This document shows positions 490 through 37,532 of a stretch of 53,198 bases of DNA, one piece after another (within the stretch, counting starts at the first letter, position 1; each line of letters opens with the position of its first letter). Made by a program: the position numbers and the translations under genes. The stretch is from the NCBI GenBank assembly GCA_002050035.1, contig MVCR01000003.1, positions 1 to 53,198 on the forward strand. Reading direction: 5' to 3'. The notes under the pieces were generated by a model, which was not told where the DNA came from, searched no databases, and saw nothing but the letters and a program-made list of their open reading frames with translations. Source of the stretch: Planctomycetales bacterium 4484_113 (lineage in GTDB: Bacteria; 4484-113).

Positions 490-1320
490 GTGATGGTACA
501 AAAGAAATCGAGCAAGTCTGTTAGGCGTAAGCGTCGGGCCAAAGGTCCGGCAAAGACCGCGGAAAAGCCGTTCCTGGAGATCGGGAAACTCGTACGCAAC
601 CTGCGCATCAGCAAGGGCTACAGCCAGTTCGATCTGGCGGAGATTCTGGGAGTGAATAACAGCTACCTCTCGCGCATCGAGAATGGGGAGAGACGTCCCT
701 CGACGAAGATTATGCGCAAAATGAGTGAAGCTTTGGACTTCCCGTATGATGAACTTGTGGTGGCAAGTGGGTTGCTGAGCCCCGAGTTCCGTGAGCGGCA
801 GGCGCTGGGGCGTGACAGCGGTGTCCTTCGGGATATTAGGGAGATCCGCGCAGCTCTATCACGTCTGGTTCCTCCAATGACAACCTTGGGCACCGATTCT
901 GTCCGGGCGGGGCAGCGGAGGGCGATACCTCTCTTCGACCGGGTCCCTGCCGGTCTCCTCGATGAGGCGAATGTTGTGGAGGCTCACGACGATATCGAGA
1001 AGATCGTGCTGGCGGATGATGAGCTCAATTATGATCCAAAAGCTTTCGCGCTTGTTGTCAAGGGAGATTCCATGGTGGAAGCGGGGATTCTCGATGGCGA
1101 TGTGCTCATTGTTTCTCCAGCAACCGACGTTCATGATGGCGACATCGCGGTAGTGCAGGTGAACCGACGTGAGACCACCGTCAAGATTGTGTACTTCGAA
1201 GGAGACCGCCTGCTGTTGCAGCCTGCCAACAGTCGTTACAAGGCGATGCTTCTGAAGTACCCGGATGAAGTGGAGATTCTGGGTAAGGTCATTCTGGTGC
1301 GGCGCAAGTTCATCGCCTAG
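490..1320 (+). CDS. LexA-like autocleavable repressor: N-terminal XRE-family HTH plus C-terminal S24 peptidase domain.
   Basis: HTH region: LRISKGYSQFDLAEILGVNNSYLSRIENGERRPS (XRE/Cro-like). Ala-Gly cleavage-site context RVPAG|LLD. Ser nucleophile in VVKGDSM and Lys in TTVKIVYF. Basic N-terminal tail. Confidence 0.8.
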   Translation: MMVQKKSSKSVRRKRRAKGPAKTAEKPFLEIGKLVRNLRISKGYSQFDLAEILGVNNSYLSRIENGERRPSTKIMRKMSEALDFPYDELVVASGLLSPEFRERQALGRDSGVLRDIREIRAALSRLVPPMTTLGTDSVRAGQRRAIPLFDRVPAGLLDEANVVEAHDDIEKIVLADDELNYDPKAFALVVKGDSMVEAGILDGDVLIVSPATDVHDGDIAVVQVNRRETTVKIVYFEGDRLLLQPANSRYKAMLLKYPDEVEILGKVILVRRKFIA

Positions 1321-1822: not shown

Positions 1823-2590
1823 ATGGATGAGAAGCAGGGAGCTTTGAGCGACAGTGGCGGTCCGCTGGCGCCGACTCCGTCTCGCTACAGCTTCGCAAGT
1901 CGTGTGCTGGACATTTTCATCGAGCCGAAGAAGGTGTTCGACTACCTCCGCGACCGCGGCGACTTCTGGCGCCCGTACATCTTCCACGCGGTGATTCTGA
2001 TGGTTGTGACTTGCTTGGCGCTTCCGGCGGTGAAGCAAGTCTCTTCAGAATATGCAGGTCTCATGGGCCGGAGCACTCCGCCAGAGGTTGGTCTGACCGA
2101 TTACTTGATGACGCCGGTGCAAGTCGCCGCGGGTCTGGCGATTAGTTTTGCTGTTCTTGGCTTCGTTATCTGGCTCGCAGTTCTCATCTCGTCAGGCAAA
2201 GCGCGCTATGGACAAGCGCTTTCGCTTGCCGCCTATACTTTCTTTCCCGTCCTCCTGGCGAAGGTGATTAATGGAATCACGCTGATGATTACCAGGCCCT
2301 CGCTGGGTGATCCATCGGTGATGATGGTTACCCAGGCACCCGTCATCAACTACACTAGCTTGGCACAATTGTTCGCTGGGCGGCCGATCCTGCAGACATC
2401 TCTCCTGCCCGTAGGTATCTTCACGCTTTGGGCGCTCTATCTTCTTGTTATCGGCTTGCGGCGTTCTGCAAATGTAAGCATGGTAGCGGCGTGGGTTACC
2501 GCGCTGAGCTTGCTGGTAGTTCAGGTCGGTCTGTATGCTCTGATGGCCTTCGGTATGGCCATGTCCCTCAAGGCCGTGGGAGCAGGATAA
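1823..2590 (+). CDS. Yip1-domain integral membrane protein (YknW-like).
   Basis: Five predicted TM helices. N-terminal motif DIFIEPKKVFDYLRDRGDFWRPYIFHAVILMVV is typical of bacterial Yip1-family proteins. A HlyD adaptor gene follows with a 3-nt gap. Confidence 0.55.
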   Translation: MDEKQGALSDSGGPLAPTPSRYSFASRVLDIFIEPKKVFDYLRDRGDFWRPYIFHAVILMVVTCLALPAVKQVSSEYAGLMGRSTPPEVGLTDYLMTPVQVAAGLAISFAVLGFVIWLAVLISSGKARYGQALSLAAYTFFPVLLAKVINGITLMITRPSLGDPSVMMVTQAPVINYTSLAQLFAGRPILQTSLLPVGIFTLWALYLLVIGLRRSANVSMVAAWVTALSLLVVQVGLYALMAFGMAMSLKAVGAG

Positions 2591-2593
2591 GAG

Positions 2594-3868
2594 ATGAAGC
2601 GTATTCTCCTTCTGGTGTTGGCCGTGGTCATTATCGCCGCCTTCGTGTTTTGGCGCGTGAGCGTTTCCCGTGAGGCGGGGGGTGACTCGAGCTCGAAAAC
2701 AAAGGGCTCCTCCGATTATGAGGAAGTCAAGTACGGCGATCTCACTCTGACTGTCGAAGGAACCGGCATTGTCGAGCCGCGGACTACAGCTAGGGTCAAG
2801 AGTGAGGCGACCGGTATCGTTGAGGAGCTCTATATAAAGGAAGGCGACGAAGTCGAGAAGGGAGACCTTATTGCCCGGCTTGACCAGGAGGATCAAAAGC
2901 TGAGGCTGCAGAAGGCAGTTCTGGCAGAGAAACAGGCGAAGCTTCGCTACGAGCGGGTGAAGCAGACCGACCTGCCGAAGCAGATTACGGTGGCGCAAGC
3001 ACGCGTGGATGAACTCAAGTTGTCGCTGACCAATGCAGAGGATAGACTGGGGCGTGTGAAGCAACTCGCCACCCGTGGCTACGCCTCCGACCAGGAAGTT
3101 GAAGACGCGCAGAAGGCAGTGGACTTGTTTAGGGTGCAGCTGGATGAGGCGGAGACTAGCCTTGAGCTTCTGAAGGGCACTGATTACGCTCAAACCATGG
3201 AGGCGGCTCGTCTCTCCTGGGAGCAGTCCAAGGTCGATCTGGCGCAGGCACGTAAGGCGCTTGGCGACGCGACGATAGTCTCGCCTATCGACGGTACGGT
3301 GTTGGCGAAGTATGTAGAGGAAGGCGATACGGTTATTTCCTCCAGTCAGGGCTTCACCGAAGGCACAACCATCTGTACCGTCGCCGACCTGCACGAGGTG
3401 CAGGTGCGGGGCTCCATCGACGAGGTTGATATCGGCACGGTGGAGGTGGGACAGAAGGCTGAACTGACAGTGGATCCCTATCCTGACCGAGTATATGAAG
3501 GAACCGTCACCAACATCTTTCCCCAGGGTGAGAAGCAGCCGGGGGGGCTCACCACCTTCACCGTGATGATATCGGTTGCGAATGAAGACCGCAGCCTGCT
3601 GGCGAATATGACAGCGGCAATCAAGATTAAGACCAAGACGATTGAGCATGTGCTGCTGGTGCCATTTGCCGCTATCCGACCTGGTGAGAAGGAGGGCGAG
3701 ATGGTAGTTTTCGTCCGGCAGGAACGCGGGATTCCCAAAAAGACCGTCGTTAAGCTAGGTGTTACCGACTACGAGAACTACGAAGTGCTTGAAGGTCTGC
3801 AAGAAGGCGACGAAGTGAAGATAAAGGACTTCCCGAGGGAAATCCGCGTTGAGGCGAGAGCCGGCTAG
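2594..3868 (+). CDS. HlyD-family efflux periplasmic adaptor / membrane fusion protein (YknX-like).
   Basis: N-terminal TM anchor, then biotinyl/lipoyl-like hairpin region GTGIVEPRTTARVKSEATGIVEELYIKEGDEVEKGDLIARLD. Long coiled-coil segment. C-terminal beta-barrel motif (TICTVADL..VQVRGSIDEVD). Confidence 0.8.
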   Translation: MKRILLLVLAVVIIAAFVFWRVSVSREAGGDSSSKTKGSSDYEEVKYGDLTLTVEGTGIVEPRTTARVKSEATGIVEELYIKEGDEVEKGDLIARLDQEDQKLRLQKAVLAEKQAKLRYERVKQTDLPKQITVAQARVDELKLSLTNAEDRLGRVKQLATRGYASDQEVEDAQKAVDLFRVQLDEAETSLELLKGTDYAQTMEAARLSWEQSKVDLAQARKALGDATIVSPIDGTVLAKYVEEGDTVISSSQGFTEGTTICTVADLHEVQVRGSIDEVDIGTVEVGQKAELTVDPYPDRVYEGTVTNIFPQGEKQPGGLTTFTVMISVANEDRSLLANMTAAIKIKTKTIEHVLLVPFAAIRPGEKEGEMVVFVRQERGIPKKTVVKLGVTDYENYEVLEGLQEGDEVKIKDFPREIRVEARAG

Positions 3869-5159: not shown

Positions 5160-7973
5160 TTAATCCGCTTCCTCTGTTCCCTTGCTCTCCTCGTCGCGCA
5201 GGCGCAGCACCTTCTTCAGGAACCGCGCGGTATGGCTCATAGGATTCAGCGCCACTTCTTCAGGAGTCCCTTCCGCCACCAGCCGCCCGCCGGCATCCCC
5301 GCCCTCGGGTCCCAGGTCGATTATCCAATCGGCGCACTTGATGACGTCCAGATTGTGCTCGATGACGATGACGGTATTGCCGGCGTCGGCAAGCCTCGAA
5401 AGCACGTTGAGGAGCTTCTTGATGTCGTCGAAGTGCAAGCCGGTCGTGGGTTCATCCAGGAGATAGAGTGTCTTGCCGGTGCTGCGCTTGGTCAGCTCCT
5501 TCGCCAGTTTCACGCGCTGGCTCTCGCCGCCGGATAGGGTGGGTGCGGATTGACCCAGCTGAATGTAGTCCAGCCCCACATCGGACAGAGTCTGCAGAAT
5601 CCGCAGAATCGGGGGATGCTTGGCGAAATGCTCCATCGCCTCTTCGACCGTCATCTGCAGCACGTCGTAGATATTCTTGTCATTGTACCTGACCCTCAGA
5701 GTCTCGCGATTGAAGCGCCTGCCTCCACATTCCTCGCAGGTGATATGGACGTCGGGGAGGAACTGCAACTCGATTCGCTTGACTCCTTCGCCCTGACAGG
5801 CTTCGCAGCGTCCTCCCTTTACATTAAAGGAAAAGCGTCCCGGCTTGTAGCCGCGCACGCGGCTCTCGGGGAGCTGGGCGAATAACTCGCGGATAGGCGT
5901 CCAGACCCCGCTGTATGTTGCGGGATTCGAGCGCGGAGTTCGTCCGATAGGCTTCTGCGAGATCCGGATGACCTTATCCACATTCTCCAGCAGTCCGCGT
6001 ATCTCCTTGAACTGTCCCGTCTTGCGGATGGTGCCGTGAAGAAGATTCGCCGTCGCCTTGTAGAGCGTCTCATTGATGAGGCTTGATTTTCCAGAGCCGG
6101 AGACTCCGGTGATGGCCACGAACTTTCCCAGCGGGATGCGCACCGCAAGGTTCTTCAAGTTGTTGGTGGTGGCTCCCACAATGGTAATGAACTTGCCGTT
6201 TCCCTTGCGGCGTGAGCGTGGCACTTCGATCCGAAGTTCGCCACTCAGGTACTTGCCAGTCAGCGTCTTACCAGAGCGTGCCAGTTCCCCGGCGGTGCCC
6301 ACCTCGTCAATCCATCCGCCTTTGCGTCCTGCGCCGGGACCGAAGTCGAAGATGACATCCGCCGTCTCCATCGCCTCGCGGTCGTGCTCCACCACGATAA
6401 TGGTGTTGCCGAGGTCGCGGAGCTGAATCAGTGTATCTAGCAGGCGTCGGTTGTCTCTCTGATGCAGACCGATGGATGGTTCATCGAGTATGTAGATAAC
6501 GCCGGTGAGGCCGCTTCCGATTTGGCTCGCCAGGCGGATGCGCTGGCTCTCGCCGGCAGAGAGTGACGGGGCACTCCGGGAAAGCGTGAGATACCCTAGA
6601 CCGACATCTTGCATGAAGCGAAGACGTGCAACAACCTCACGCAGTAGGTCACGGGCGATTTCTCCGGCGGTGCCGGGCAGGTGCAGTTTCTCCAAGAAGC
6701 GTACGGAATCATCGACCGCCATGTCCGTGATCTCAGCAATGCTCTTCCCGCCGACCGTCACTGCCAACGATTGAGGTTTGAGACGTTTGCCGCCACAGGA
6801 GGGGCAGGGCTTGTTCGCGAAGAAATAGGCGTAGTAGCGCCGAGCACTCTCGCTTTCGGTCTGCCGATAGAGCCGCTTTATTGTGTTGGCGATCCCTTCT
6901 AGGGGGTTGTGATTGCCCTTGCCGAAGAGAATCGCCTCGCGTGCCCGAGCAGGCAAATCCTGCCACGGGGTTGAGAGTGAGTACCCCAGTTTCCTGAGTA
7001 TTCTCGACGCCTGGTTGCGGAAATAGCGCTCCTGGCAGAACCAGGGCTTGAGCGCCCCGTTGCTGATACTGAGCGATGGGTCAGGAACAAGCGCGTTCTC
7101 ATCCACTTCCAGACTCGTGCCGAGACCATCGCAGACTTCGCACATTCCATAGGGGCTGTTGAAACTGAACATCTGCGGTGTCAGGTCTTGGTAAGAAATC
7201 CCGCACTCGGTGCACGCGAGTTTCTCACTGAAGACTCGCTCGGCACCGCTATCAGCATCGAGGGTTATCACGGTGCCTCCGCTCTCCTTGAGCGCCATCT
7301 CCACGCTCTCCGTTAGTCGCTTGCGCTCGTCCCGACGGATCTTCAACCTATCCACCACAATTTCGATGTCGTGCTTTCGCTTCTTGTCGAGATGAATGCT
7401 CTCATCCAACGAAATGATGCGAGCGTTGACCCGCACTCGGGCGTATCCACTCGCTCTGGCAGCGTTGAAAACGTCGCGGTACTCTCCCTTGCGTCCCCGA
7501 ATGACGGGTGCTAGCAGGTAGATGCGCGTTCCTTGGGGATAACCAAGAATGCCGTCCACGATGTTGTCAACTGTCTGGCGCCCCACGACCTTACCGCACT
7601 TCACGCAGTGCTGAATCCCCACGCGAGCGTAGAGCACCCTCAGGAAGTCGTAGATCTCTGTAACTGTGCCTACGGTGGAGCGTGGATTATGCGAGGCTGA
7701 CTTCTGTTCAATCGCGATGGTAGGTGAAAGACCGGTAATCTGGTCAACATCGGCCTTCTCGAAATCCGTGAGGAACTGGCGGGCATATGAGGAAAGCGAT
7801 TCCAGATAGCGTCGCTGACCTTCGGCGTAGATGGTGTCAAGAGCCAAGCTGGACTTGCCCGAGCCGGAGACTCCGGTGAACACGACCAACTTATTGCGCG
7901 GAATCCGCACGTCGATGTTTTTGAGGTTGTGAACCCGCGCGCCCTGAACGAGTATAAACTTCTCCGCCATCAC
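5160..7973 (-). CDS. uvrA: Excinuclease ABC subunit A.
   Basis: Two ABC ATPase modules: [23 protein letters not shown] and [12 protein letters not shown]. Zn-finger motifs CxxC. 937 aa. The start is GTG 7973 or ATG 7970. Confidence 0.97.
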
Positions 7974-8117: not shown

Positions 8118-10073
8118 ATGCTCCAACGAGGAGGAGGGGTTGTCGCCGCTCTTGCTGCGTGGGATGGGAAGTTGCGGTCGGCTTCACGTGTAGCTTTTCT
8201 TGCGCTCGCAACGGCTTTCGCCGCAACGATTCTTGCGTCGACCGCTGTACAGGCTAAACCCAACCTCGAAGGCGTGACCGGTATCCTCAATATACCGACT
8301 GCGGAAGTGCTCAAAGATGGTGAAGCCTGCTTTGGCTTTGGGCGCAATGAGAATCGCACGCGCTGGCCCGGTCAGACGCAAAGGAATTACTTCGCTGGTA
8401 TCGGCTACCTGCCGCACCTGGAGGTTTGCGCGCGTTACACCGAGTTTCCTGGAGTAGCGCAGACACGCGTTCCAGGTTATGGTGCGTACAAGGATCGGAG
8501 CGCTAACCTGAAGCTTCAATTCCTGGCGGAGCCATCGGCTCCATTTTCTCTTGCCGCGGGTGTCTTCGATGTGGGTGGGCAGGCCCGCTTGCAGCGTGCT
8601 CTCTATGGGGCGCTCACTAAGACAGCAGGGCCAGTGAAGCTCACCGCTGGCTATGGCAATCGCCGCATAGAGGGCTTCTTCGGCGGCGTTGAGATCACTC
8701 CGCTCAAGGAGGCTTCGCTGCTCTACGAGTACGATAGCTGCCAGCACAATTTCGGAGTCCGAGTGTCACCGGGTGGGCATTTCAACCTGCTGCTCGCCTC
8801 CGCTGACCGTGACTTCACCTTTGGCATAAGCTGCTCGTATGGCTTGCAGCACTCAGGGAAGCGATTGGCGAAGAATGATGCCAGGCTGACCCGCGATCCG
8901 GTCGCAGTTGAGTGCTCGGTTGACTCTCTGGATGCACTGGCCGCAAAGCTTGCGCGCGCTGGCTTCGAGAACGTTGAAGCCAAGAGCGCGGGTGACATCC
9001 TGACCTTGAAATACGAGAATCGTCTCGATCGAATGGAAGAGGAAGCGTGGGCGTGGGTGCTGGTGTGGGCGGCCATCAACGCACCTGCGGATATAGCCGA
9101 GCTTCGTCTCGTTGCCCGCCGCGAGGGCAATTTCATCCTCAACACCGAATGCTCCATTGGCGACCTCTTGGCGTTTGCAAACGGTGAGTTAAGCCGCAAC
9201 GAGTTTGCCCGTCGCGTGAGGATTTTCGACTACCAGCCGCCGGACTACGAATTCGATTACGAGTCGGCTCTTCATCAACGAGCTGCTGGCAGCACTGATA
9301 TTCACATTTCTCCTGCGAACAAGCTTGACTTGGGCCGTCCTTACGCACCGGTGAAGCAGCGCAGCGGCATCGCCATCAAACATGAAACCTCGCTGGGGCG
9401 GCATTTCACCTTGCGAGGACACGAAGAGATTCCACTCACGAACAACTTGGACCGCCGCGATCCGCCGGTGCCCTTTGTGCGTGGGGCGAGCATTGATCTC
9501 TATGCGACCGGCGGTGAAGCTCTCTACTTCCTTGGCAGCGGAGGTTACTTCGACGACCATCGCTGGGGAGTCAAGGGCGAGCTGCGGAAGTACTTCGCTG
9601 ACAGCCGCTTTGACCTCGGTGTGATTGGAGCGAGAGTACGGGACAAGAAGTTCGGCGACTACCTGAATGAACTTCTGGGTTCGGGGAGCATCCGGATTCC
9701 TCGGTATGATCTGACTCTCAGCGCGTACGGAGGTCGGTTCTTGCTGGGAGATGATGGATGGCGGGCGGAAACCCGTCGTTACTTTGGACGCTCTGAAGTG
9801 GATTTCTACATCTACGATACGGAGTTCACAAGGACCGAAGGGGGCGTCCGCTTTGTGCTTCCCCTGGCTGGTTACAACCAGAAGGATTACTCGCCGGTGC
9901 GGATTTCGCTGGCGCCCTTCTTTAGTTACGAGTACCGAAGCAGAGGTTACGGCGGTGGTGATTTCCTAGCTTGGACGAGCAGCGTTGAGAGTTTCCGTAA
10001 GCGGCTTTTTCCTTGGTACTTGCGGGAGCACTTGGAGTTGATTGAAGCGGTAGCAAAGGGGATGCCCCGGTGA
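8118..10073 (+). CDS. YjbH/GfcD-family outer-membrane beta-barrel protein (exopolysaccharide / group-4-capsule associated).
   Basis: Signal peptide (AFLALATAFAATILASTAVQA). Family-typical N-terminal motifs GILNIPTAEVLKDGE, YKDRSANLKLQF and AAGVFDVGG (compare GLLQTPTARM, YKDKAFDLKL, AVGARDIGG as recalled for E. coli YjbH). Aromatic C-terminal residues. Confidence 0.65.
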   Translation: MLQRGGGVVAALAAWDGKLRSASRVAFLALATAFAATILASTAVQAKPNLEGVTGILNIPTAEVLKDGEACFGFGRNENRTRWPGQTQRNYFAGIGYLPHLEVCARYTEFPGVAQTRVPGYGAYKDRSANLKLQFLAEPSAPFSLAAGVFDVGGQARLQRALYGALTKTAGPVKLTAGYGNRRIEGFFGGVEITPLKEASLLYEYDSCQHNFGVRVSPGGHFNLLLASADRDFTFGISCSYGLQHSGKRLAKNDARLTRDPVAVECSVDSLDALAAKLARAGFENVEAKSAGDILTLKYENRLDRMEEEAWAWVLVWAAINAPADIAELRLVARREGNFILNTECSIGDLLAFANGELSRNEFARRVRIFDYQPPDYEFDYESALHQRAAGSTDIHISPANKLDLGRPYAPVKQRSGIAIKHETSLGRHFTLRGHEEIPLTNNLDRRDPPVPFVRGASIDLYATGGEALYFLGSGGYFDDHRWGVKGELRKYFADSRFDLGVIGARVRDKKFGDYLNELLGSGSIRIPRYDLTLSAYGGRFLLGDDGWRAETRRYFGRSEVDFYIYDTEFTRTEGGVRFVLPLAGYNQKDYSPVRISLAPFFSYEYRSRGYGGGDFLAWTSSVESFRKRLFPWYLREHLELIEAVAKGMPR

Positions 10074-10130: not shown

Positions 10131-10159
10131 TTGGCAGTTGCGACCGGTGGTGCTATAAT
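10131..10159 (+). promoter_or_regulatory. Promoter TTGGCA-17-TGcTATAAT (upstream promoter of lipoprotein gene A).
   Basis: -35 element TTGGCA 10131-10136, 17-nt spacer, extended -10 TGcTATAAT 10151-10159. Confidence 0.4.
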
Positions 10160-10233
10160 GAGGCCGACCATATGATGAAAAGGAGGGGATGTGCAGGGTA
10201 ACAATTGGCTCAGGGGGCAACTCGGTCGGCTTA

Positions 10234-10262
10234 TTGCCAAAGCTGACCTTATGGATTATAAT
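10234..10262 (+). promoter_or_regulatory. Second promoter TTGCCA-17-TATAAT upstream of lipoprotein gene A.
   Basis: TTGCCA 10234-10239, 17-nt spacer, perfect TATAAT 10257-10262. It lies about 55 nt upstream of the GTG at 10317, which has GGAGG 7 nt upstream. Confidence 0.4.
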
Positions 10263-10316: not shown

Positions 10317-11570
10317 GTGAGAAGACTTATTGGTTTGATCATTTTAGTGGTAGCCGCTGTCCTGCTGGTTTCGGCCTGCGGGAGGAAGCTACCGGCGCCG
10401 CTTGGCATTCAGCTTGGCCCCGGGGTAAGTCTGGGAACCATGCCAGATGCGGCGTCGAACTTTGGCGGTGAGGCTTTCACCTTCACCGCCACGATGACCA
10501 GCGGAACCGGCGTCACAAGTTGGTCGTGGGATTTCGGAGGCGGCGCGATTCCCAACACTGCCACCGGCTCAGGGAATTCGTCCTCGGTCAATGTGACCTT
10601 GGTGAACCCTTCGCTGACTGCTGACGAGAGTTACAGCGGGAGTTTCACTGCCACCGACGTTAACGGGAGCACAACGAAGACCTTTGAGTATACTGTTGGT
10701 CCGACCCAGAATCGGGCTCCCACGGTTACACTGACGTATGCTGATGGTGTTCTGACGGCGACCGCGGCGGACGAAGATGGTGACGAGCTCACTTTCACCT
10801 TCACCGTCGACAGCGGTGATGTCACCGTCACTCCGGCGACCATCGGCCCGACCTCGACCTACGTCCAGACGGCGACGGTTGCGGCTGCTGGCTTTGAGGA
10901 TGTCGACTTCACGATTACGGTGACGGTGGACGACGGCATGGGTGGTACGGACAGCGACTCGGTGAGCGACACTCTTGTTACTCCAAAGCCGCCTGACAAC
11001 GCCATCTGGATGACCGTTGACAAGACAACCGTAGCTGTGGGCGACACTATCGTGCTGACGGTATGGGCCTACAACACCGCGAATCCGCTGCGGTATCTGG
11101 ATTCCGCGATGGTCGAGTACGAAGGGTTCGGAGTCGGAGGAGCTACACTAACTACCGACACCTTCAATCTCGGCGCGGTTGGTGGCGACGCTGGTGATGT
11201 GGACGGCTTCTGGACGCTCGTCCCCGGCGGTAACTTCGGGCTGGTTCTTGGCGGCATCTCTCTGTTCGGTCCCTACGATGCCGACTACTTCGTCGACGAT
11301 GTCCAGGTTCCTGCTGGCCGCAAGTACATCGCCGTGAACGTCTCGCCTACCTTTACTGGCACGCCAGGTGAGGCTCCTGCTGGATCCACCGGTGCATTGT
11401 TCAATGTTACGCTGACCGCGGAAACTGCTGGAACTGCCGAGTTCCACTTTGTCCATGAGTACTCGCAGTCGGCGGGTGGTGCTATCATTGCCGGCACGAT
11501 GTACAGCTCTGACGAGAACACGCACTACAGCTTCGTTGACGACCAGTCTCTCGAGATCACTGTGGAGTGA
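10317..11570 (+). CDS. Surface lipoprotein with a PKD domain, a cadherin/Big-like domain and a C-terminal cohesin-like beta-sandwich.
   Basis: Lipoprotein signal MRRLIGLIILVVAAVLLVSAC (lipobox VSAC). PKD signature SWSWDFGGG. Repeat-domain motif NRAPTVTLTYADGVLTATAADEDGDELTFTFTVDSGDVTV. C-terminal ~170 aa (VAVGDTIVLTVWAYN...GALFNVTLTAETAGTAEFHF) resembles cohesin strand patterns. Confidence 0.65.
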   Translation: MRRLIGLIILVVAAVLLVSACGRKLPAPLGIQLGPGVSLGTMPDAASNFGGEAFTFTATMTSGTGVTSWSWDFGGGAIPNTATGSGNSSSVNVTLVNPSLTADESYSGSFTATDVNGSTTKTFEYTVGPTQNRAPTVTLTYADGVLTATAADEDGDELTFTFTVDSGDVTVTPATIGPTSTYVQTATVAAAGFEDVDFTITVTVDDGMGGTDSDSVSDTLVTPKPPDNAIWMTVDKTTVAVGDTIVLTVWAYNTANPLRYLDSAMVEYEGFGVGGATLTTDTFNLGAVGGDAGDVDGFWTLVPGGNFGLVLGGISLFGPYDADYFVDDVQVPAGRKYIAVNVSPTFTGTPGEAPAGSTGALFNVTLTAETAGTAEFHFVHEYSQSAGGAIIAGTMYSSDENTHYSFVDDQSLEITVE

Positions 11571-11595
11571 TTTGAGGTTGTGGTTTGAACATGAC

Positions 11596-11629
11596 GGGAC
11601 CCCGCCCACCCGCGGGTGGGTGGGGTCCC
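11596..11629 (+). terminator. Near-perfect 16-bp GC-rich hairpin between the two lipoprotein genes. No U-tract, so it may be an attenuating or stabilising stem-loop rather than a full terminator.
   Basis: GGGACCCCGCCCACCC-GC-GGGTGGGTGGGGTCCC, with a single G:U mismatch. It lies 26 nt after the stop of gene A and about 80 nt before the start of gene B. Confidence 0.35.
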
Positions 11630-11707
11630 GCAAGGGCGAGCAGGAGGGAGGAAATCCCTCCGGGCTTGGCCACCAGCAAAAACGCCATTGAAAAGGAGAG
11701 AGTCATC

Positions 11708-14700
11708 ATGAGAAAGGTATTATCCCTAACTTTTGGGGCTGGCGTGGCGCTGCTGCTCTTCTTCCTGCTGCTCGGATGTGGTGGCGGTCGTGGTGCGCCC
11801 ACCGCGATTGGCCCGAGTGTCAGCAGCTCCCAGGTCCCAGACATCCCGCAAGGCGCGGGTAATTTCGTTGGTGTGCCCTATCGGCCCGATGGTTCCGTTG
11901 ATGCTTCGCTGCAGAAGCAGATTGCGGTAGTCAGTTCGGGCTCTGCAAGTGAAACGAGGGTCACCATTTCTGCGGAGGACGTGACTGAACTCACGAACTT
12001 CACTTTCGAATTGAGGTATGATCCCGACCTCTACGATCCGGTGAGTGTGGATTACGGCGAGTTCATGCCCTCGGGTGATGACCTCATTACATTCAGCTAC
12101 ACCGACGAGCCGGGTGTCGTATCCATCGCCAAGGTCTTCATCCATCCCGATGAAGCTATCGGTGTTTCCGGCTCAGGTACGCTGGCAACGGTTACTTTCG
12201 AGAACCGCCCCTATGCTGGTAAGACGGCTGCCGTTCTGCCCAGTGGGGCAATCAGTGACCTTGTGCAGGATCCTGCGGTCGTTGCACCAGATATGGGTGT
12301 GATGTGGACAACCAGCTTCTTCCACGGCGACGGCAACAGGGACAGTATGGTAAACATCTCGGACATCACCCCGATTGCTGCCCATTGGAATGAGAACACC
12401 ACGGAGAATCCTGAAGTCGCCGTAGTTGACTACAACGAAGATACGGTCATTGCAATTAGCGACCTGACGCCTTTGGCGGCGAACTTCGGCGCGAGCGTGG
12501 GGCAGTTTGATGTTCGGGTGGCGACGGACGCCGTGGATGGCACCTACGCTTCCGACGGGACACTAGATTGGGCAGATGCCACCGGAACTAGTGAAGGTGG
12601 CTTCAACGAGTACCACTACACTCTTACCGGCGATTACTCCAGCTTCGAAACGATCTGGGTAAAGGTCTGGTTCTTTGATGGAGAGTCCACGCCGAACGAG
12701 GGGCCAGAAAGCCTCGATTACGTCGAGTTTTATCCTGGCGGAACGCCGCCCACTCCAGAAATCAGCATCGTTCCTGGAACTGGGTATGGTGCTATAGAGA
12801 TTCAGATTGAGCATACTACTAACACCACTGGCGGCGATCGAGACGGCACAGATCTCTATGCGCCTGAGCAGGGCACGCCAGCGACTGGTGATGTAACTGC
12901 AAACGACGAGGTAACGCTGCGTCTGACCGGGATTCACTATCTCTATCAGGGCAACGCTTACGGCATCGGTGAGGCTGCTCTGTACCCCGATCCGGTCGAC
13001 TACCCCGATTTCAACGGCGAGACCGGCTACAACAACATCATCGCGGTGCTCCAGGAGCTGTTGGTTGCGGATGAGAGTACCGAGTTCGTAAGCGTTGAGG
13101 GTGATATCGAGGCGTTTGCCGAGGTGCCGAAGCAGGCTGGCGACAAGAAGTACACGGGTACGATTGGTCCCAATGCACCCAGCAGTGTTTCTGGCGTAAC
13201 CACGTTAACGGCCAATGCTTACGTTACGCCACCTCTTTCCATGACGAACGGTGTGGAGCAGACGTTCTTCGCCTCGGTAGATCTGAACGTTGTTGAGGAT
13301 GGCTTTGCGCCTGAAGTATGGGGGAGCGTACCCAACGAGGTGGCGGTGAATCAGGAGCTGCCAGAAGTGCAGGTCGCGGTTGATTTCGGCTGGGATGACT
13401 GGGATCCTGATGACAATCCTCTGGGAACGGCTCCCGAGGGTGAGGAGTACACTGCGATTCCGGCGGCCGTGCAATTGGTCAACAAGGACGCGGATCCGTG
13501 GATTGTGGTGGAGTTCTCGCCGGCTGCTACCCCGCATGTTCCAGATCCGCCCACCGACCCATTGACCTACACTTACTGGTCTCCTTCTGATGAAGAGCCG
13601 CCAGCGCCGCAGCGACCCGGAGAGCCTGAGGATACTGGGGGTGGTACTATGGCCACGATGCACGTGCTGGCTTATATCCCAACCGGGCAGGTTCAGGGCG
13701 AATATCATTGGCGCATCATCGAGACCGAGCAGCGCGGCGATCCACCGGCTGATGTTCAGGTTCGCTCCTCACTCAAGCAGCCCGACGAGGTTTTCACCGT
13801 TACCGGCCCTGTGTACTTGGAGATTACGAGCTTCCCGCTGGACGACATCTACCCGAGCGAGCCGTCGGGGATCGTTTACTTCTTCCCCACCGACCCGGTA
13901 GTCCGTTTGAATCCGGTCGGTCACGAAGAGTATCCACCCAGTGGCACGGTGTGGGTGCCTGATGATGAGACCAGGTACAATGTCATGAAGAAGGAGAGCG
14001 GCTTCGAGTTCGTACCGCAGCCATTTGATATCGTCCATGGACTGGCGGAATCACCGGCGGCGTACTATGTTATGGGAGATTCACCACCGCCCGACACCAC
14101 CTCCGGTACGCATCTGGGCAACATGTACCTGCAGCCGCATAGCATCGGCATCAGCCCAGCGCTGATCCAGATGGAGACTCTGCCCGGGCACGTCAGCATT
14201 GGGTTCTTCGACCGGCAGGGCAACATGATTGCGAACATCACGAGGAATTTCGTTGCTGCGGCGGGTCCCGGATACCGTGACACACCGGTGATTGATGAGT
14301 ACACGGACTTCGGCGTTGATGTCTGGGATGTGCCGGGTCCACCAGACTTCAGCATTAAGACCGCGCACAAGGACGACTTCGATATGGTGGTATTCCAGGT
14401 GAAGAACCTGTGGGTCCGTGACCGGACTCACGACAATGGTGCACTACCTGGGAACTCAGCTACCCACCTGATCCTCTACACGCCGCCGCCAGAGTTGAAT
14501 CCCCTTCCAGAGATTCAGGTAATACCACGTGTAATTAGCACTAGCCCGGCGGTTCCTTGCTTGGTCAGTATAGATCCTTCGGAGGTCTACTACTGGAACG
14601 ACAACACACCGCACGAGATTATGAACGGACAGTGGTGGGTTTCGTTCAGGAATGCCCAGGCAGGTGAGAGCTCCTACTATCAGGACTTCGGGCTTGACCC

Positions 14701-14719
14701 GCTCACTATTGCACCATAG
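11708..14719 (+). CDS. Large surface lipoprotein: N-terminal cohesin domain, type-I-like dockerin module, then a ~740-aa acidic C-terminal region of unknown function.
   Basis: Start ATG 11708 with SD AAAAGGAGAG. Signal and lipobox MRKVLSLTFGAGVALLLFFLLLGCGG. Cohesin signature (FTFELRYDPDLYDPVSVDYGEF...GVVSIAKVF...GSGTLATVTFE). Two dockerin Ca-binding segments, DGNRDSMVNISDITPIAAHW and DYNEDTVIAISDLTPLAANF. These match the D1-N3-D5-(N9)-D12 loop pattern. Confidence 0.7.
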   Translation: MRKVLSLTFGAGVALLLFFLLLGCGGGRGAPTAIGPSVSSSQVPDIPQGAGNFVGVPYRPDGSVDASLQKQIAVVSSGSASETRVTISAEDVTELTNFTFELRYDPDLYDPVSVDYGEFMPSGDDLITFSYTDEPGVVSIAKVFIHPDEAIGVSGSGTLATVTFENRPYAGKTAAVLPSGAISDLVQDPAVVAPDMGVMWTTSFFHGDGNRDSMVNISDITPIAAHWNENTTENPEVAVVDYNEDTVIAISDLTPLAANFGASVGQFDVRVATDAVDGTYASDGTLDWADATGTSEGGFNEYHYTLTGDYSSFETIWVKVWFFDGESTPNEGPESLDYVEFYPGGTPPTPEISIVPGTGYGAIEIQIEHTTNTTGGDRDGTDLYAPEQGTPATGDVTANDEVTLRLTGIHYLYQGNAYGIGEAALYPDPVDYPDFNGETGYNNIIAVLQELLVADESTEFVSVEGDIEAFAEVPKQAGDKKYTGTIGPNAPSSVSGVTTLTANAYVTPPLSMTNGVEQTFFASVDLNVVEDGFAPEVWGSVPNEVAVNQELPEVQVAVDFGWDDWDPDDNPLGTAPEGEEYTAIPAAVQLVNKDADPWIVVEFSPAATPHVPDPPTDPLTYTYWSPSDEEPPAPQRPGEPEDTGGGTMATMHVLAYIPTGQVQGEYHWRIIETEQRGDPPADVQVRSSLKQPDEVFTVTGPVYLEITSFPLDDIYPSEPSGIVYFFPTDPVVRLNPVGHEEYPPSGTVWVPDDETRYNVMKKESGFEFVPQPFDIVHGLAESPAAYYVMGDSPPPDTTSGTHLGNMYLQPHSIGISPALIQMETLPGHVSIGFFDRQGNMIANITRNFVAAAGPGYRDTPVIDEYTDFGVDVWDVPGPPDFSIKTAHKDDFDMVVFQVKNLWVRDRTHDNGALPGNSATHLILYTPPPELNPLPEIQVIPRVISTSPAVPCLVSIDPSEVYYWNDNTPHEIMNGQWWVSFRNAQAGESSYYQDFGLDPLTIAP

Positions 14720-14750
14720 TTCTAGGGAATCTGTAACTGCAGAGAAAGAA

Positions 14751-14778
14751 AGATGCCCCCGCTTCGGCGGGGGCATCT
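14751..14778. terminator. Bidirectional intrinsic terminator between the convergent lipoprotein gene B and pgi.
   Basis: Perfect 12-bp stem AGATGCCCCCGC / GCGGGGGCATCT with a UUCG tetraloop. T-rich on the minus-strand side (revcomp of GAGAAAGAAAG). TCTTCACGTT on the plus side. Confidence 0.6.
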
Positions 14779-14808
14779 TCACGTTCAGCGGTTGCTGGTG
14801 ACAATGCT

Positions 14809-16134
14809 TCAAGCTGGGGACTGCTGCAGCAGTTTGCGCGCAAGCTGTTTGCTCTCTTCTACTGCTGGCTGGGTGTAGGGGTCAATACTAAGGTAGACTC
14901 CCATAACAGCTATTGCCGTTTCGAAGAAGAGAATCAGTTCACCGAGCACTTCGGGCTGCAAGTCCTGCAGGATAAGAAGATAGCTCGGTAGGGACTGGTG
15001 GCGCAACGAGCTGCGCGTGCCTTCCAGTTCAGCCGACGCAATCTCGTGGAGGTGCCTGCCCTGCAGGTAGTTGAACTCCGCGACTCCTCTTGGTGGATGG
15101 CTGAGTGCGGGCAGCTCGGCGCGGGTTTGCGCGACTTTGGTGAATCCACTTATCTTGTTGGGCGGACCATCAAGCGCAAGCTGAAGCAAGCTGTGCTGAG
15201 CCGCAGGACCACTGACAGCCAGTGGAGTCAGCCCGACGCGCACTGTCTCACTTGCGACCTGCTTCTGCTTCCCTAGGCTCTCGGCGAAAAGCTGCTCCCA
15301 CCAGCGTCCGAACTCCCGCAAAGCATCGCAGTATATCCAGAGCATGAGCTCGCTGAAGTTCCTTCTCGTAGCCAGGAGATGAAGACGCGCCGCAAGTCTG
15401 AGCGAGGGATTGCTCTCGTAGTCATCTGCGGTGAGGTTCGAACGTGCCGCAGTTGCGCCTTCGAGAAGATCCTCTATGGGGTACCCAAGAAATCCCAGGG
15501 GAAACAACGAAACAGGGCTCAGCGCGCTGAAGCGCCCGCCTACATCTCCGGGCACCGGCAGTACTGGCGCTCCCGTCTCGCGTGCGTATGTCGCCAGTGC
15601 GCCATCTCTGTTCCCGGTGGTCACAACTACCGGCGAGTCGGCGAGAGCAGGGCGCTGCGATAACGCCAGGAAGTTTGCTATGGTTTCTAACGTATTTCCA
15701 GATTTGCTCACTGGGTTGAGGACAACGCCTTGAGTTCCCGCACGGTGGATCACTTCAGCCGTCGTTGCTTCGTCCAGATTATCGACAACGATCAGTTCTC
15801 GCTCCCCGGCTGAGAAGCTGGAGGGTCCCGTTTGGCGGACGAAGGTGGCAGCCAGTGCTTTTGTTCCCAGCGTACTCCCCCCCATTCCGATCGTAACTAG
15901 GACGTTCCTGTTCTCGATGCGCGCCAGCGCTTGGCGGACTAATGAGAGTTCGGCGGTTCGGGCTTCGAGGTCGAGCCAGCCAAGAGGCCAGTTGTATGGA
16001 TTCTGAAGGATCTGCTTCCACGGGTGAGGATGCGCTTGCTCAAGAGCGGCCAGTTCCTGTGAAGAAACGCCCCTCTCGCCGATGGCGTCCTTATGGAGCC
16101 AGGTGAAGTCATAAGTTATTCGCATGCCCCGCAT
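14809..16134 (-). CDS. pgi: Glucose-6-phosphate isomerase (SIS-domain PGI family).
   Basis: SIS-domain motifs VLVTIGMGGSTLGTKAL and DNLDEATTAEV. A second SIS half follows (VVTTGNRDGALA...GGRFSALSPVSL). Confidence 0.75.
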   Translation of the reverse strand: MRGMRITYDFTWLHKDAIGERGVSSQELAALEQAHPHPWKQILQNPYNWPLGWLDLEARTAELSLVRQALARIENRNVLVTIGMGGSTLGTKALAATFVRQTGPSSFSAGERELIVVDNLDEATTAEVIHRAGTQGVVLNPVSKSGNTLETIANFLALSQRPALADSPVVVTTGNRDGALATYARETGAPVLPVPGDVGGRFSALSPVSLFPLGFLGYPIEDLLEGATAARSNLTADDYESNPSLRLAARLHLLATRRNFSELMLWIYCDALREFGRWWEQLFAESLGKQKQVASETVRVGLTPLAVSGPAAQHSLLQLALDGPPNKISGFTKVAQTRAELPALSHPPRGVAEFNYLQGRHLHEIASAELEGTRSSLRHQSLPSYLLILQDLQPEVLGELILFFETAIAVMGVYLSIDPYTQPAVEESKQLARKLLQQSPA

Positions 16135-23552: not shown

Positions 23553-24118
23553 GCCTTTCGTCGACGCCAGAACCCTCGCGCAAGCCCAGTGCTGCGCCTA
23601 CAGGCAGGCCGGTGAGCTTGACTGGCGTGTTCACTGCATCTCTGAACAAGCTCGTTGCCTGGATGCAGGCGAATTCTATCTGGCCTTTGACTGCTGGACT
23701 TGCATGCTGCGCTATTGAGATGATGGCTACGAGCGCGAGCCGGTTCGACATCGCCAGGTTCGGCAGTGAAGTATTCCGGGCCAGCCCCCGCCAAGCTGAC
23801 CTGATGATTGTCTCGGGGCGGCTCTCATGGAAGATGGCCCCCATCTTGCGTGAGCTTTATGACCAGATGCCTTTTCCCAAGTGGGTCATCAGTATGGGTG
23901 CATGCGCTTCCTCTGGGGGGCTCTTCAGAACCTATGCCATTGTTCACGGTGTTGACCATGTGGTGCCGGTGGACATCTATGTGCCCGGATGCCCGCCGCG
24001 ACCGGAGGCATTGCTTGATGCGCTCATCAAGCTGCAGAAACGGATTAAGAGCGGCAGCTACGTACCTGCTTATGCGCGACCGCCATGGAAGCAGTGGCTG
24101 GAAGCTCCCGATAGATAG
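23549..24118 (+). CDS. nuoB: NADH-quinone oxidoreductase subunit B (N2 Fe-S cluster).
   Basis: [18 protein letters not shown] and PGCPPRPE cysteine motifs. ATGA start/stop overlap with nuoA. Confidence 0.93.
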
Positions 24119-24123
24119 GAAAT

Positions 24124-26333: not shown

Positions 26334-26338
26334 GGACT

Positions 26339-31114: not shown

Positions 31115-31126
31115 TGTGGTGAAGCC

Positions 31127-32501: not shown

Positions 32502-32506
32502 GCCGA

Positions 32507-34459: not shown

Positions 34460-34460
34460 G

Positions 34461-37433: not shown

Positions 37434-37503
37434 CAGGCCGCGGGCACGGTTGAGTGCGGGCGAACTGCACAAGCTTGGCTGGGTGGCGATGAGAGCAAAG
37501 GGC

Positions 37504-37532
37504 TTGACATCCTGTAGCTGCGCTGGTAGTAT
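37504..37532 (+). promoter_or_regulatory. Near-consensus sigma70 promoter TTGACA-17-TAGTAT (P1) upstream of the orphan lipoprotein gene.
   Basis: Perfect -35 TTGACA at 37504-37509, 17-nt spacer, TAGTAT at 37527-37532. Confidence 0.5.

What the first reader, a model, noticed from the sequence alone, without database searches (positions are those of the whole stretch)
10317..14719. Tandem surface lipoproteins carrying cohesin and dockerin modules outside any cellulosome context
Gene B (11708-14719) encodes a lipobox signal, a clear cohesin domain at about nt 11867-12259 (FTFELRYDPDLYDPVSVDYGEF...GSGTLATVTFE), and a canonical two-segment dockerin at about 12317-12490 (DGNRDSMVNISD..., DYNEDTVIAISDL...). 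The dockerin segments have the D1/N3/D5/D12 Ca-loop pattern. A ~740-aa acidic domain with no known motif follows. Gene A (10317-11570) is another lipoprotein with a PKD domain (WDFGGG), a cadherin/Big-like repeat and a C-terminal cohesin-like beta-sandwich. No glycoside hydrolase or scaffoldin genes are nearby. A cohesin and a dockerin in one polypeptide, plus a second cohesin-like module in the neighbouring lipoprotein, suggests a self-assembling or hetero-oligomerising cell-surface complex of unknown function. Both genes carry their own strong promoters and sit next to a YjbH/GfcD outer-membrane protein gene.
Basis: partly seen in the sequence, partly recalled or inferred. Interest (0 to 1): 0.75.

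Follow-up and report, generated by a model that had tools for sequence, protein, structure and literature searches.

The report
Cohesin–dockerin lipoprotein pair beside YjbH porin
Two neighbouring, very acidic lipoprotein genes in an uncultured Planctomycetes-labelled bacterium carry the "plug and socket" modules (dockerin and cohesin) known from cellulose-degrading complexes, always sit behind a GfcD/YjbH-type outer-membrane protein gene and have nothing to do with cellulose, so they probably form a lipid-anchored docking complex on the cell envelope.

Summary

New here: YjbH-A-B is a conserved module in at least 13 loci of MAGs labelled Planctomycetales, with differing flanks. A's cohesin and B's dockerin are always present. 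B's own cohesin is missing in about half of the orthologs. The dockerin is B's best-conserved module.

In relatives, the same lipobox-linker-dockerin cassette sits on an S8 protease and a seven-haem cytochrome. One protein fuses an A-type cohesin directly to part of B's C-terminal region.

Best reading (about 0.5): A's cohesin binds B's dockerin in a Ca-dependent way, as part of a lineage-wide system of dockerin-tagged lipoproteins. Binding, surface exposure and function are untested. Non-cellulosomal cohesin/dockerin systems are already described, so this is a new variant of a known kind.

The parts
8118..10073 (+). YjbH/GfcD-family outer-membrane protein (651 aa, ordinary signal peptide); first gene of the conserved three-gene module
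   Evidence: Pfam PF06082 E 4.9e-37. hhalign of the ortholog profile against E. coli K-12 YjbH: probability 99.3%, 531 aligned columns covering residues 53-605. Precedes A and B in all 14 loci whose sequence continues past it and holds them.
10131..10262 (+). Two sigma-70-like promoter matches upstream of gene A (10131-10159 TTGGCA-17-TATAAT with TG; 10234-10262 TTGCCA-17-TATAAT)
   Evidence: 11 of 12 matches each. These are consensus matches only; function is not shown, and the promoter rules of this lineage are unknown.
10317..11570 (+). Gene A: acidic lipoprotein (417 aa). Signal plus lipobox VSAC (Cys21, nt 10317-10379), PKD-like domain (res 35-128), Big_9/cadherin-like domain with a DxDGD motif (res 136-220), cohesin-fold domain (res 229-417)
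11001..11567 (+). Cryptic cohesin-fold domain of gene A (res 229-417)
11595..11630 (+). 16-bp GC-rich hairpin just after the stop codon of A, in the A-B spacer
   Evidence: A comparable perfect hairpin of different sequence sits at the same place in all 6 loci examined. It has no U-tract and its role is unknown.
11708..14719 (+). Gene B: acidic lipoprotein (1003 aa). Lipobox LLGC (Cys24), cohesin, dockerin, Ig-like X1 segment, orphan C-terminal region
11885..12241 (+). Cohesin module of gene B (res about 60-178; Pfam match res 82-165). Optional: absent in about half of the orthologs
   Evidence: Pfam PF00963 28.9 bits, above the 24.1 cut-off. hhalign against Pfam-annotated cohesins of LRR proteins gives probability 78%. 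Presence and absence pattern.
12305..12493 (+). Dockerin module of gene B (res 200-262), with Ca loops at nt 12329-12364 and 12428-12463
   Evidence: Present in every ortholog and the best-conserved mature module (41% mean pairwise identity).
12500..14716 (+). X1 segment (res 265-355) and orphan acidic region X2-X3 (res 356-1003) of gene B: the unknown 'payload'
   Evidence: No Pfam or NCBIfam hit. Only 21 cluster representatives of 1.84 billion match at E<=1e-3. Sub-domain boundaries were inferred from partial hits. The AF2 model failed (pLDDT 31).
14749..14780 (.). 14-bp GC-rich hairpin between the converging gene B and pgi; terminator-like

Best explanation
The region is the A-B part of a conserved three-gene envelope module, YjbH/GfcD-type outer-membrane protein, then lipoprotein A, then lipoprotein B. 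It occurs in an uncultured lineage whose MAGs are labelled Planctomycetales/Planctomycetia.

Shown:
- Both proteins are exported and have lipoboxes, so they should be lipid-anchored.
- A ends in a divergent cohesin-fold domain.
- B carries a canonical two-loop, EF-hand-type dockerin, and in this genome also an N-terminal cohesin.
- The genomic context is housekeeping, not cellulolytic.

Inferred mechanism: the Ca-loaded dockerin of B plugs into the C-terminal cohesin of A. This gives a lipid-anchored A-B heteromer in which A (PKD, Ig-like, cohesin stalk) acts as a one-socket anchoring scaffoldin. B presents its roughly 740-residue acidic orphan region as the functional payload, probably a binding or structural surface element.

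B's extra cohesin is a second, dispensable socket. It could recruit other members of the lineage's family of dockerin-tagged lipoproteins. The same lipobox-linker-dockerin-X1 cassette is found on an S8 protease and on a seven-haem cytochrome in a related MAG.

The YjbH homologue is functionally coupled, either as exporter or insertion site for the lipid-anchored partners or for a lipid-linked glycan that they bind. That step is the least supported.
For: Module identity: B cohesin and dockerin; A cohesin fold.

Conserved synteny: YjbH-A-B is found in the window and in L001-L009, L011, L012 and L014. L010 ends inside A. Flanks differ in L002 and L005, so the three genes travel together.

One dockerin per locus (B), and cohesins only in A and in a subset of B.

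The dockerin is retained, with both Ca loops intact, in the six B orthologs that lack B's cohesin. It is the most conserved mature part of B: 41% against 23-29% for the C-terminal parts. Its partner must therefore lie outside B, and A's cohesin is the syntenic candidate.

Rosetta-stone-type fusion: P0084/L018 joins an A-type cohesin (E 5.5e-42) directly to B's X2 segment in one lipoprotein. P0083 joins an A-type PKD to X2.

The closest solved relatives of both partners are anchoring-type (type II) modules: cohesins 3l8q and 5k39 and X-dockerins 4wi0 and 4u3s.

The same dockerin cassette sits on other payloads in the MAG that holds L002: S8 protease P0080 and a seven-CxxCH cytochrome.

Precedents for non-cellulosomal cohesin/dockerin systems in Planctomycetes and in sulfate reducers: PMC6461901 and PMC10553843.
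Against:
- A's C-terminal domain is a cohesin by predicted fold only. Sequence profiles see nothing, and beta-sandwiches can converge.
- Only about 17-20 kb was seen per related genome, so other cohesins elsewhere could be the dockerin's real partner.
- Both partners being lipid-anchored is unlike classical systems, and their topology (surface or periplasm) is unknown.
- The fusion evidence rests on one frameshifted long-read contig.
- The function of B's payload remains unassigned.
Confidence: 0.5

Rival explanations
1. Self-assembly of B. B's own cohesin binds B's dockerin, either within one molecule (self-capping) or head-to-tail between molecules to form a lipid-anchored polymer or lattice. 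A would be an unrelated neighbour.
For: In this window B has both a Pfam-level cohesin and a dockerin about 30 residues apart. Proteins with both modules are common among non-cellulosomal examples: the LRR proteins P0006-P0074 carry PF00963 plus PF00404, as does the 'adaptor' of PMC6461901.
Against: Six of 12 B orthologs have no cohesin, yet they keep a well-conserved dockerin with both Ca loops. Self-binding therefore cannot be the conserved function. A, with its cohesin fold, is co-conserved in every locus.
Confidence: 0.15
2. There is no cohesin-dockerin pairing. A and B are independent acidic, Ca-binding surface or periplasmic proteins (adhesin or S-layer-like). The 'dockerin' serves only as a Ca-stabilised EF-hand pair and the 'cohesins' as generic beta-sandwich spacers.
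For: A's cohesin is invisible to sequence methods. B's dockerin is below the Pfam cut-off as a single sequence. Both proteins are very acidic, and A also has a DxDGD Ca-type motif. The functions of non-cellulosomal modules are mostly unproven.
Confidence: 0.15
3. Polysaccharide-export accessory role. A and B replace GfcB/YjbF and GfcC/YjbG as the partners of the YjbH/GfcD barrel. They would act in export, anchoring or organisation of a lipid-linked exopolysaccharide, with B's orphan region binding glycan. This can coexist with A-B docking.
For: Strict synteny with a full-length YjbH homologue. The family is tied to exopolysaccharide export and its usual partners include a lipoprotein (PMC11494523). 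A distant YjbH in L013 sits beside a Wza-like exporter and a glycosyltransferase.
Against: No YjbF/GfcB, YjbG/GfcC, Wza, Wzc or glycosyltransferase gene was found next to the cluster or among the ORFs of 200 aa or more in the 53 kb. Smaller ORFs elsewhere in the window were not scanned. A and B show no similarity to GfcB or GfcC. No carbohydrate-binding module was detected.
Confidence: 0.15

Closest known systems
Type II cohesin / X-dockerin anchoring pairs of cellulosomes (e.g. Acetivibrio cellulolyticus ScaA-ScaB, PDB 4wi0/4u3s/3l8q; C. thermocellum 5k39)
   Same: The dockerin has two Ca loops with D1/N3/D5/D12, each followed by a helix. An Ig-like module adjoins the dockerin. The cohesin is a beta-sandwich with a short helix insertion. 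The pair is used to tether something to the cell envelope. These are the best structural and sequence matches.
   Different: There are no SLH or sortase anchors; both partners are lipoproteins of a diderm. There is no multi-cohesin scaffoldin and no CAZymes. The Ig-like module follows rather than precedes the dockerin. A's cohesin has no detectable sequence similarity to known cohesins.
'Planctosome' hypothesis for freshwater Planctomycetes (Nemodlikiaceae; Andrei et al. 2019, PMC6461901)
   Same: Non-cellulosomal cohesin/dockerin proteins in Planctomycetes. It includes an adaptor with both a dockerin and a cohesin, and proposes dockerin-tagged peptidases held at the outer membrane by Ca-dependent docking. 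A dockerin-tagged S8 protease exists in a MAG that carries this cluster.
   Different: That model is anchored by a lamin-tail-domain protein and uses HYR domains and M12B/M14 peptidases. None of these was seen here. It describes no lipobox anchoring, no YjbH synteny and no B-type orphan region. It too is purely computational.
Non-cellulosomal cohesin/dockerin adhesins of ANME archaea and syntrophic sulfate reducers (PMC10553843); solved non-cellulosomal cohesins of C. perfringens (2vo8, 2w1n) and A. fulgidus (2xdh)
   Different: Different lineages and architectures, and no conserved pairing with an outer-membrane barrel gene has been reported there.
gfcABCDE / yjbEFGH group 4 capsule loci of E. 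coli
   Same: A full-length GfcD/YjbH homologue, predicted in the literature to have two barrels with a lateral gate for lipid-anchored cargo, is encoded next to lipoprotein genes.
   Different: The GfcB/YjbF and GfcC/YjbG partners and the Wza/Wzc/Wzb genes are absent. Their place is taken by two cohesin/dockerin lipoproteins.
Slam (DUF560) surface-lipoprotein translocons encoded next to their substrates (own knowledge, not tested here)
   Same: A gene for an outer-membrane barrel lies directly beside genes for its putative lipoprotein cargo.
   Different: There is no homology to DUF560, and a translocon role for YjbH-family proteins with protein cargo has never been shown.

Membership tests
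Cohesin (Pfam PF00963): module in gene B | Sequence match to the family HMM at or above the curated cut-off | tested here: met
   28.9 bits against a cut-off of 24.1, E 1.5e-6, res 82-165. Ortholog P0002 scores 25.5 bits. hhalign against Pfam-annotated cohesins gives probability 78%.
Cohesin (Pfam PF00963): module in gene B | Nine-stranded jelly-roll beta-sandwich fold | tested here: inconclusive
   The full-length AF2 model failed (mean pLDDT 31). Beta strands are predicted across res 72-165, but at pLDDT 50-60 only.
Cohesin: C-terminal domain of gene A | Sequence match to cohesin profiles | tested here: not met
   None of 14 family members hits PF00963 at E<=1. hhalign against three cohesin profiles gives probability <=6%. 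A profile search of the PDB finds no cohesin.
Cohesin: C-terminal domain of gene A | Cohesin fold | tested here: met
Cohesin (both modules) | Binds a dockerin | not testable with these tools
   No multimer prediction or experiment was available.
Dockerin type I (Pfam PF00404): gene B | Sequence match to the family HMM at or above the curated cut-off | tested here: inconclusive
   The window protein scores 18.7 bits against a cut-off of 22.9. The ortholog profile hits solved dockerins at E 4e-7 to 1e-3. Relatives P0090 (29.8 bits) and P0093 (27.8 bits), which match B's dockerin HMM at E 1e-13 to 1e-25, pass the cut-off.
Dockerin type I (Pfam PF00404): gene B | Tandem duplicated segment, each an EF-hand-like 12-residue Ca loop (D1, N/D3, D5, D/E12) followed by a helix | tested here: met
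   DGNRDSMVNISD-ITPIAAHW and DYNEDTVIAISD-LTPLAANF. Positions 1 and 12 of the loops are (near-)invariant in 12 orthologs, while positions 3 and 5 stay polar Ca-ligand types (N/D/S/T and D/S/N). The paired pattern is unique in the window and absent from 300 shuffles.
Dockerin type I (Pfam PF00404): gene B | Ca-dependent binding to a cohesin | not testable with these tools
   Needs recombinant modules or multimer modelling.
Cellulosome | Multi-cohesin scaffoldin plus dockerin-bearing carbohydrate-active enzymes | tested here: not met
   There is a single cohesin per protein. No GH, CE, PL or CBM domain occurs in A, B or any ORF of 200 aa or more in the 53 kb. Dockerin payloads seen in relatives are an S8 protease, a multihaem cytochrome and fn3 proteins.
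Bacterial lipoprotein | Signal peptide ending in a lipobox [LVI][ASTVILG][GAS]C, with the processing enzyme present | tested here: met
   The lipoboxes are VSAC in A and LLGC in B, conserved in orthologs. LspA (PF01252, E 2.6e-30) lies at 42916-43533. Acylation itself and the final membrane were not tested.
YjbH/GfcD outer-membrane protein family (PF06082) | Full-length homology to YjbH/GfcD | tested here: met
   Pfam E 4.9e-37. hhalign against E. coli K-12 YjbH gives probability 99.3% over 531 columns, and BLASTP gives E 2e-15. The two-barrel fold itself was not modelled here.
gfcBCD / yjbFGH-type capsule locus | YjbH/GfcD accompanied by GfcB/YjbF and GfcC/YjbG genes | tested here: not met
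   The neighbours are uvrA (opposite strand) upstream and A, B downstream. A and B have no match to those families. Small ORFs elsewhere in the window were not scanned.
'Planctosome' (PMC6461901) | LTD-anchored cohesin protein, dockerin-HYR-cohesin adaptor, dockerin-bearing M12B/M14 peptidases | tested here: not met
   No LTD, HYR, M12B or M14 domain was found in A, B or the neighbours. Only the general logic is shared.

The most novel reading that the evidence does not exclude
The YjbH/GfcD-family double barrel, predicted elsewhere to release lipid-anchored cargo through a lateral gate, would here be a dedicated translocon. It would flip lipoproteins A and B, and perhaps the whole family of dockerin-tagged lipoproteins, to the cell surface in a Slam-like way. 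That would give this very widespread 'polysaccharide' outer-membrane family a protein cargo.

On the surface, A's cryptic cohesin would then serve as a lipid-anchored socket. B, an S8 protease and a multihaem cytochrome would plug into it through a shared lipobox-linker-dockerin cassette. The result would be a modular, Ca-dependent outer-membrane docking system unrelated to cellulose degradation.
Probability: 0.15. Interest if true: 0.85.

Novelty: new variant of a known kind. Interest (0 to 1): 0.55.

Why it matters
Cohesin-dockerin pairs are the textbook high-affinity connectors of cellulosomes. What they do in the many non-cellulolytic organisms that encode them is largely unknown.

This locus offers a compact, conserved and testable case:
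- one cohesin lipoprotein, one dockerin lipoprotein and one outer-membrane barrel, always together;
- natural variants (B with or without its own cohesin) and domain fusions that predict who binds whom.

It also puts a member of the widespread but functionally obscure GfcD/YjbH family in a context without any capsule genes. That could help decide whether these barrels handle lipid-anchored cargo in general.

The cryptic cohesin in A shows that sequence-based censuses undercount cohesins. The shared dockerin cassette on a protease and a multihaem cytochrome hints at a modular way of arming the planctomycete cell surface.

Practical limits: the organisms are uncultured, and every functional step is inferred.

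Tried and rejected
- Full-length AF2 model of B from a 7-sequence alignment failed (pLDDT 31).
- The afdb50 fold library was unavailable.
- hhalign, Pfam and PDB-profile searches for sequence similarity between A's C-terminal domain and cohesins were all negative.
The YjbH alignment was used instead.
- The second word-indexed protein search, run with the B profile, did not return the B orthologs of L003-L005. They were taken from loci instead.
- Internal-repeat tests within B's C-terminal region, and between it and A's domains or cohesins, were negative.
- Pfam and NCBIfam on seven B orthologs gave nothing for the C-terminal region.
- Rfam and tRNA scans of the window were empty.
- P0005, a cohesin-dockerin-PKD lipoprotein, was checked as a possible ortholog. 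It was rejected because its context has neither YjbH nor A.
- L013's YjbH was rejected as a member of the module because it sits in a classical EPS context.
- Peer et al. 2009 on non-cellulosomal cohesin/dockerin could not be read because it is not held.
- A first regex for the Ca loops was mis-registered and returned nothing.

Full report
**1. What is in the sequence**

The two ORFs exist as described.

Gene A (10317-11570, 417 aa) starts at a GTG 7 nt after GAAGGAGG. Gene B is the 1003-aa product from the ATG at 11708, preceded by AAGGAG. The longer TTG-initiated ORF from 11585 is not supported, because all orthologs begin MRK... at the equivalent ATG.

Both have signal peptides ending in lipoboxes: VSAC with Cys21 in A, and LLGC with Cys24 in B. 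A signal peptidase II gene is present in the window (42916-43533).

Both mature proteins are very acidic. Lys+Arg is 2.3% in A and 3.7% in B, against Asp+Glu of 11.9% and 15.0%. The pI routine bottomed out near 4, its lower bound. The neighbouring YjbH homologue has pI 8.6.

**2. Modules of gene B**

- **Cohesin.** Pfam finds a cohesin at residues 82-165, 28.9 bits against a cut-off of 24.1.
- **Dockerin.** Pfam finds a type I dockerin at residues 206-254, 18.7 bits, just under the 22.9 cut-off.
- **Why the dockerin is nevertheless secure.**
  - Its two 12-residue loops, DGNRDSMVNISD and DYNEDTVIAISD, have the D1/N3/D5/D12 pattern. Each is followed by (I/L)TP(I/L)AA.
  - The paired pattern occurs once in 62,359 six-frame residues of the window and never in 300 shuffles.
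  - A profile of 11 orthologous dockerins hits solved cellulosomal dockerins first: 4wi0_B E 4e-7, 4u3s_B 7e-7, 2y3n_B 1.7e-5. Centrins and calmodulin come later, at E above 0.01.
  - Relatives that match B's dockerin HMM at E 1e-13 to 1e-25 pass the Pfam cut-off (P0090 29.8 bits, P0093 27.8 bits).
- **C-terminal region.** The remaining 740 or so residues have no Pfam or NCBIfam match in seven orthologs. A profile of this region finds only 21 cluster representatives among 1.84 billion proteins, 12 of them at E<=1e-30. It is a lineage-restricted orphan region.
- **Structure.** The full-length AF2 model failed (pLDDT 31), so nothing structural can be said about B.

**3. Modules of gene A**

The window protein gives only sub-threshold PKD and K319L-PKD hits. 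Across 14 family members, PKD is found in 7 (best E 1e-6), and Big_9 and cadherin-like families recur for the second domain. The WxFGGG and DxDGD motifs are conserved.

AF2 with 14 sequences gave a confident model (mean pLDDT 85) with three beta domains, 35-128, 136-220 and 229-417.

By sequence this cohesin is invisible:
- no Pfam hit in any member;
- hhalign probability <=6% against three cohesin profiles, compared with 78% for B's cohesin against independent Pfam-annotated cohesins;
- no cohesin in a PDB profile search.

**4. Context**

The upstream gene (8118-10073) is a full-length YjbH/GfcD homologue. Pfam gives E 4.9e-37, and hhalign against E. coli K-12 YjbH gives probability 99.3% over 531 columns.

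The rest of the 53 kb is housekeeping: a LexA-like repressor, uvrA, pgi, sua5, prmC, prfA, the nuo operon, methylmalonyl-CoA mutase, tmk, lspA, dxr, tldD and mnmE. No CAZyme or scaffoldin is present.

Two 11/12 sigma-70-like sites precede A. None was found before B. Instead, a 16-bp GC hairpin follows A's stop codon. A comparable hairpin of unrelated sequence sits at the same place in all six loci examined. A 14-bp hairpin separates B from the converging pgi.

**5. Comparative genomics**

The order YjbH, then A, then B recurs in 13 further distinct loci taken from metagenomes and from MAGs labelled Planctomycetales, Planctomycetia or just 'bacterium'. One of these (L010) ends inside A. The flanks differ in L002 and L005. 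The three genes therefore form a module.

A more distant YjbH (L013, 32% identity) sits in a classical exopolysaccharide context with a Wza-like exporter and a glycosyltransferase, and has no A or B.

Within each locus the only dockerin is B's. The only cohesins are A's C-terminal domain and, in a subset, B's N-terminal one.

B comes in two forms:
- With a cohesin: window, L002, L003/L008, L004, L005, L012 (about 1000-1060 aa).
- Without a cohesin: L001, L006, L007, L009, L011, L014 (about 860-880 aa). A short helical-looking linker with a GVDPxxFxxLK motif replaces it.

All forms keep the lipobox and both Ca loops. The dockerin is the best-conserved mature module of B, at 41% mean pairwise identity. 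B's cohesin is at 33% and the C-terminal parts at 23-29%.

A dockerin kept under constraint after the loss of the in-cis cohesin must have a partner elsewhere. The always-adjacent A cohesin is the simplest candidate.

**6. Domain shuffling in relatives**

The C-terminal profile search revealed the following proteins.

| Protein | Architecture |
|---|---|
| P0080 (MEP0813497.1) | lipobox, helical linker, dockerin, Peptidase_S8, PKD, B-type C-terminal region; its accession series and sample are shared with the B ortholog of L002 (MEP0814178.1), so probably the same MAG |
| P0084 (L018) | A-type cohesin (E 5.5e-42) fused directly to B's X2 segment; the lipobox lies in an upstream frame of this long-read contig |
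| P0083 | lipoprotein with an A-type PKD domain followed by X2 |
| P0090, P0092, P0093 | lipoproteins with two tandem (dockerin + X1) units |
| L016 2374-4737 (-) | 788-aa ORF 3.3 kb upstream of the P0080 gene, on the opposite strand: lipobox, linker, dockerin, X1 and seven CxxCH motifs |
| L018 16094-18448 (-) | the same cassette on an fn3-containing protein |

The lineage therefore has a family of dockerin-tagged lipoproteins with varied payloads. At least once it has replaced the cohesin-dockerin link between A-type and B-type parts by a covalent one. This is Rosetta-stone-type evidence for their association.

**7. Mechanism**

*Shown:* module identities, lipoboxes, conserved synteny, the presence and absence pattern, and the fusions.

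*Inferred (about 0.5):* Ca-dependent docking of B's dockerin into A's cohesin. This would give a lipid-anchored heteromer in which A is a one-socket anchor on a PKD/Ig stalk and B presents its orphan acidic region.

B's extra cohesin, present in the window genome, would be an additional socket for other dockerin-tagged lipoproteins or for B itself.

The closest solved relatives of both partners are anchoring-type (type II) modules. This fits a tethering role but is only suggestive.

The role of the YjbH homologue is the weakest link. The family is linked to exopolysaccharide export. It was recently modelled as a double barrel whose C-terminal barrel has a lateral gate for lipid-anchored cargo (PMC11494523). 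Here it lacks its usual GfcB/GfcC partners and any capsule genes. It may export a lipid-linked glycan that A and B bind. More speculatively, it may handle the lipoproteins themselves.

**8. Rivals**

- **Self-assembly of B through its own cohesin** is contradicted as the core function by the cohesin-less orthologs.
- **'No pairing, just Ca-binding sandwiches'** is weakened by the dockerin-specific profile hits, the conservation pattern and the fusion. It cannot be excluded without a binding test.
- **A polysaccharide-accessory role** is compatible with A-B docking and remains open.

**9. Comparison with what is known, and novelty**

Non-cellulosomal cohesins and dockerins are well known, including proteins that carry both modules. 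For Planctomycetes, a computational 'planctosome' with a dockerin+cohesin adaptor and dockerin-tagged peptidases has been proposed (PMC6461901). Cohesin/dockerin adhesins are reported in syntrophic sulfate reducers and in ANME archaea (PMC10553843).

The following appear not to have been described:
- strict three-gene synteny with a GfcD/YjbH-family protein;
- lipid anchoring of both partners;
- the sequence-cryptic cohesin in A;
- the orphan B payload;
- the shared lipobox-linker-dockerin cassette on a protease and a multihaem cytochrome.

I file it as a new variant of a known kind, with interest 0.55. It is solidly real, conserved and testable, but it is conceptually an extension of known non-cellulosomal systems and sits in uncultured organisms.

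**10. Provenance**

The same 13-kb stretch occurs with at most one mismatch in two ENA metagenome assemblies (L021, L022). A third copy (L020) has a 100-N scaffold gap inside B. The locus is therefore not an assembly artefact.

Noticed in passing
window 11595-11630; same position in L001-L005: A perfect GC-rich hairpin (12-17 bp stem, no U-tract) follows the stop codon of gene A in all six loci checked. Its sequence is not conserved. A conserved AAGGAGAG Shine-Dalgarno for B follows it. It may set the A:B expression ratio or stabilise the A transcript.
   Followed up: partly
L016 2374-4737 (-), same sample and probably same MAG as L002: A 788-aa ORF with lipobox, helical linker, dockerin, X1 segment and seven CxxCH motifs. 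This looks like a dockerin-tagged multihaem cytochrome lipoprotein, which would link cohesin-dockerin docking to extracellular electron transfer.
   Followed up: partly
L016 8001-12266 (P0080, MEP0813497.1): An S8 subtilase carries the same lipobox-linker-dockerin cassette and also a copy of B's orphan C-terminal region. This hints that the orphan region may be a substrate-binding or surface-organising module rather than an enzyme.
   Followed up: partly
L018 8346-11157 (P0084): An A-type cohesin is fused directly to B's X2 segment. The gene is split by a frameshift in this long-read contig, with the lipobox in the upstream frame. Neighbouring nuo genes in the contig also look truncated, so indel errors are likely.
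   Followed up: partly
window 14809-16134 (-): A pgi gene lies directly next to the YjbH-A-B module, just as pgi lies next to yjbEFGH in E. coli K-12. In the other loci B is followed by sua5 instead, so this is probably coincidence.
   Followed up: partly
L013 8016-12753: A distant YjbH homologue (32% identity) in an AT-richer MAG sits beside a Wza-like polysaccharide exporter and a glycosyltransferase, with no A or B genes. This is the 'classical' context of the family and a useful outgroup.
   Followed up: partly
window 30000-38000: AT skew is strongly negative (down to -0.30) across the nuoH-nuoN membrane-subunit genes. It probably reflects T-rich codons for hydrophobic residues and has no bearing on the finding.
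   Followed up: no
window 490-1320 (+): A LexA-like repressor (HTH_3 plus Peptidase_S24, 276 aa) lies near the start of the window, and uvrA is at 5160-7973. These are ordinary SOS genes.
   Followed up: no
window 2192-3649 (-), 24070-24858 (-), 26330-27082 (-) and others: Long antisense ORFs overlap well-supported genes (Yip1/HlyD, nuoCD, nuoF). They are typical spurious ORFs of a sequence with 57% GC.
   Followed up: no
L020 8590-8689: One public copy of this locus has a 100-N scaffold gap inside gene B, so gene callers there split B into fragments. This is an artefact to keep in mind when counting orthologs.
   Followed up: yes
P0090, P0092, P0093 (no loci fetched): Small lipoproteins of about 410 aa consist of two tandem (dockerin + X1) units. 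They could cross-link two cohesin-bearing proteins.
   Followed up: no
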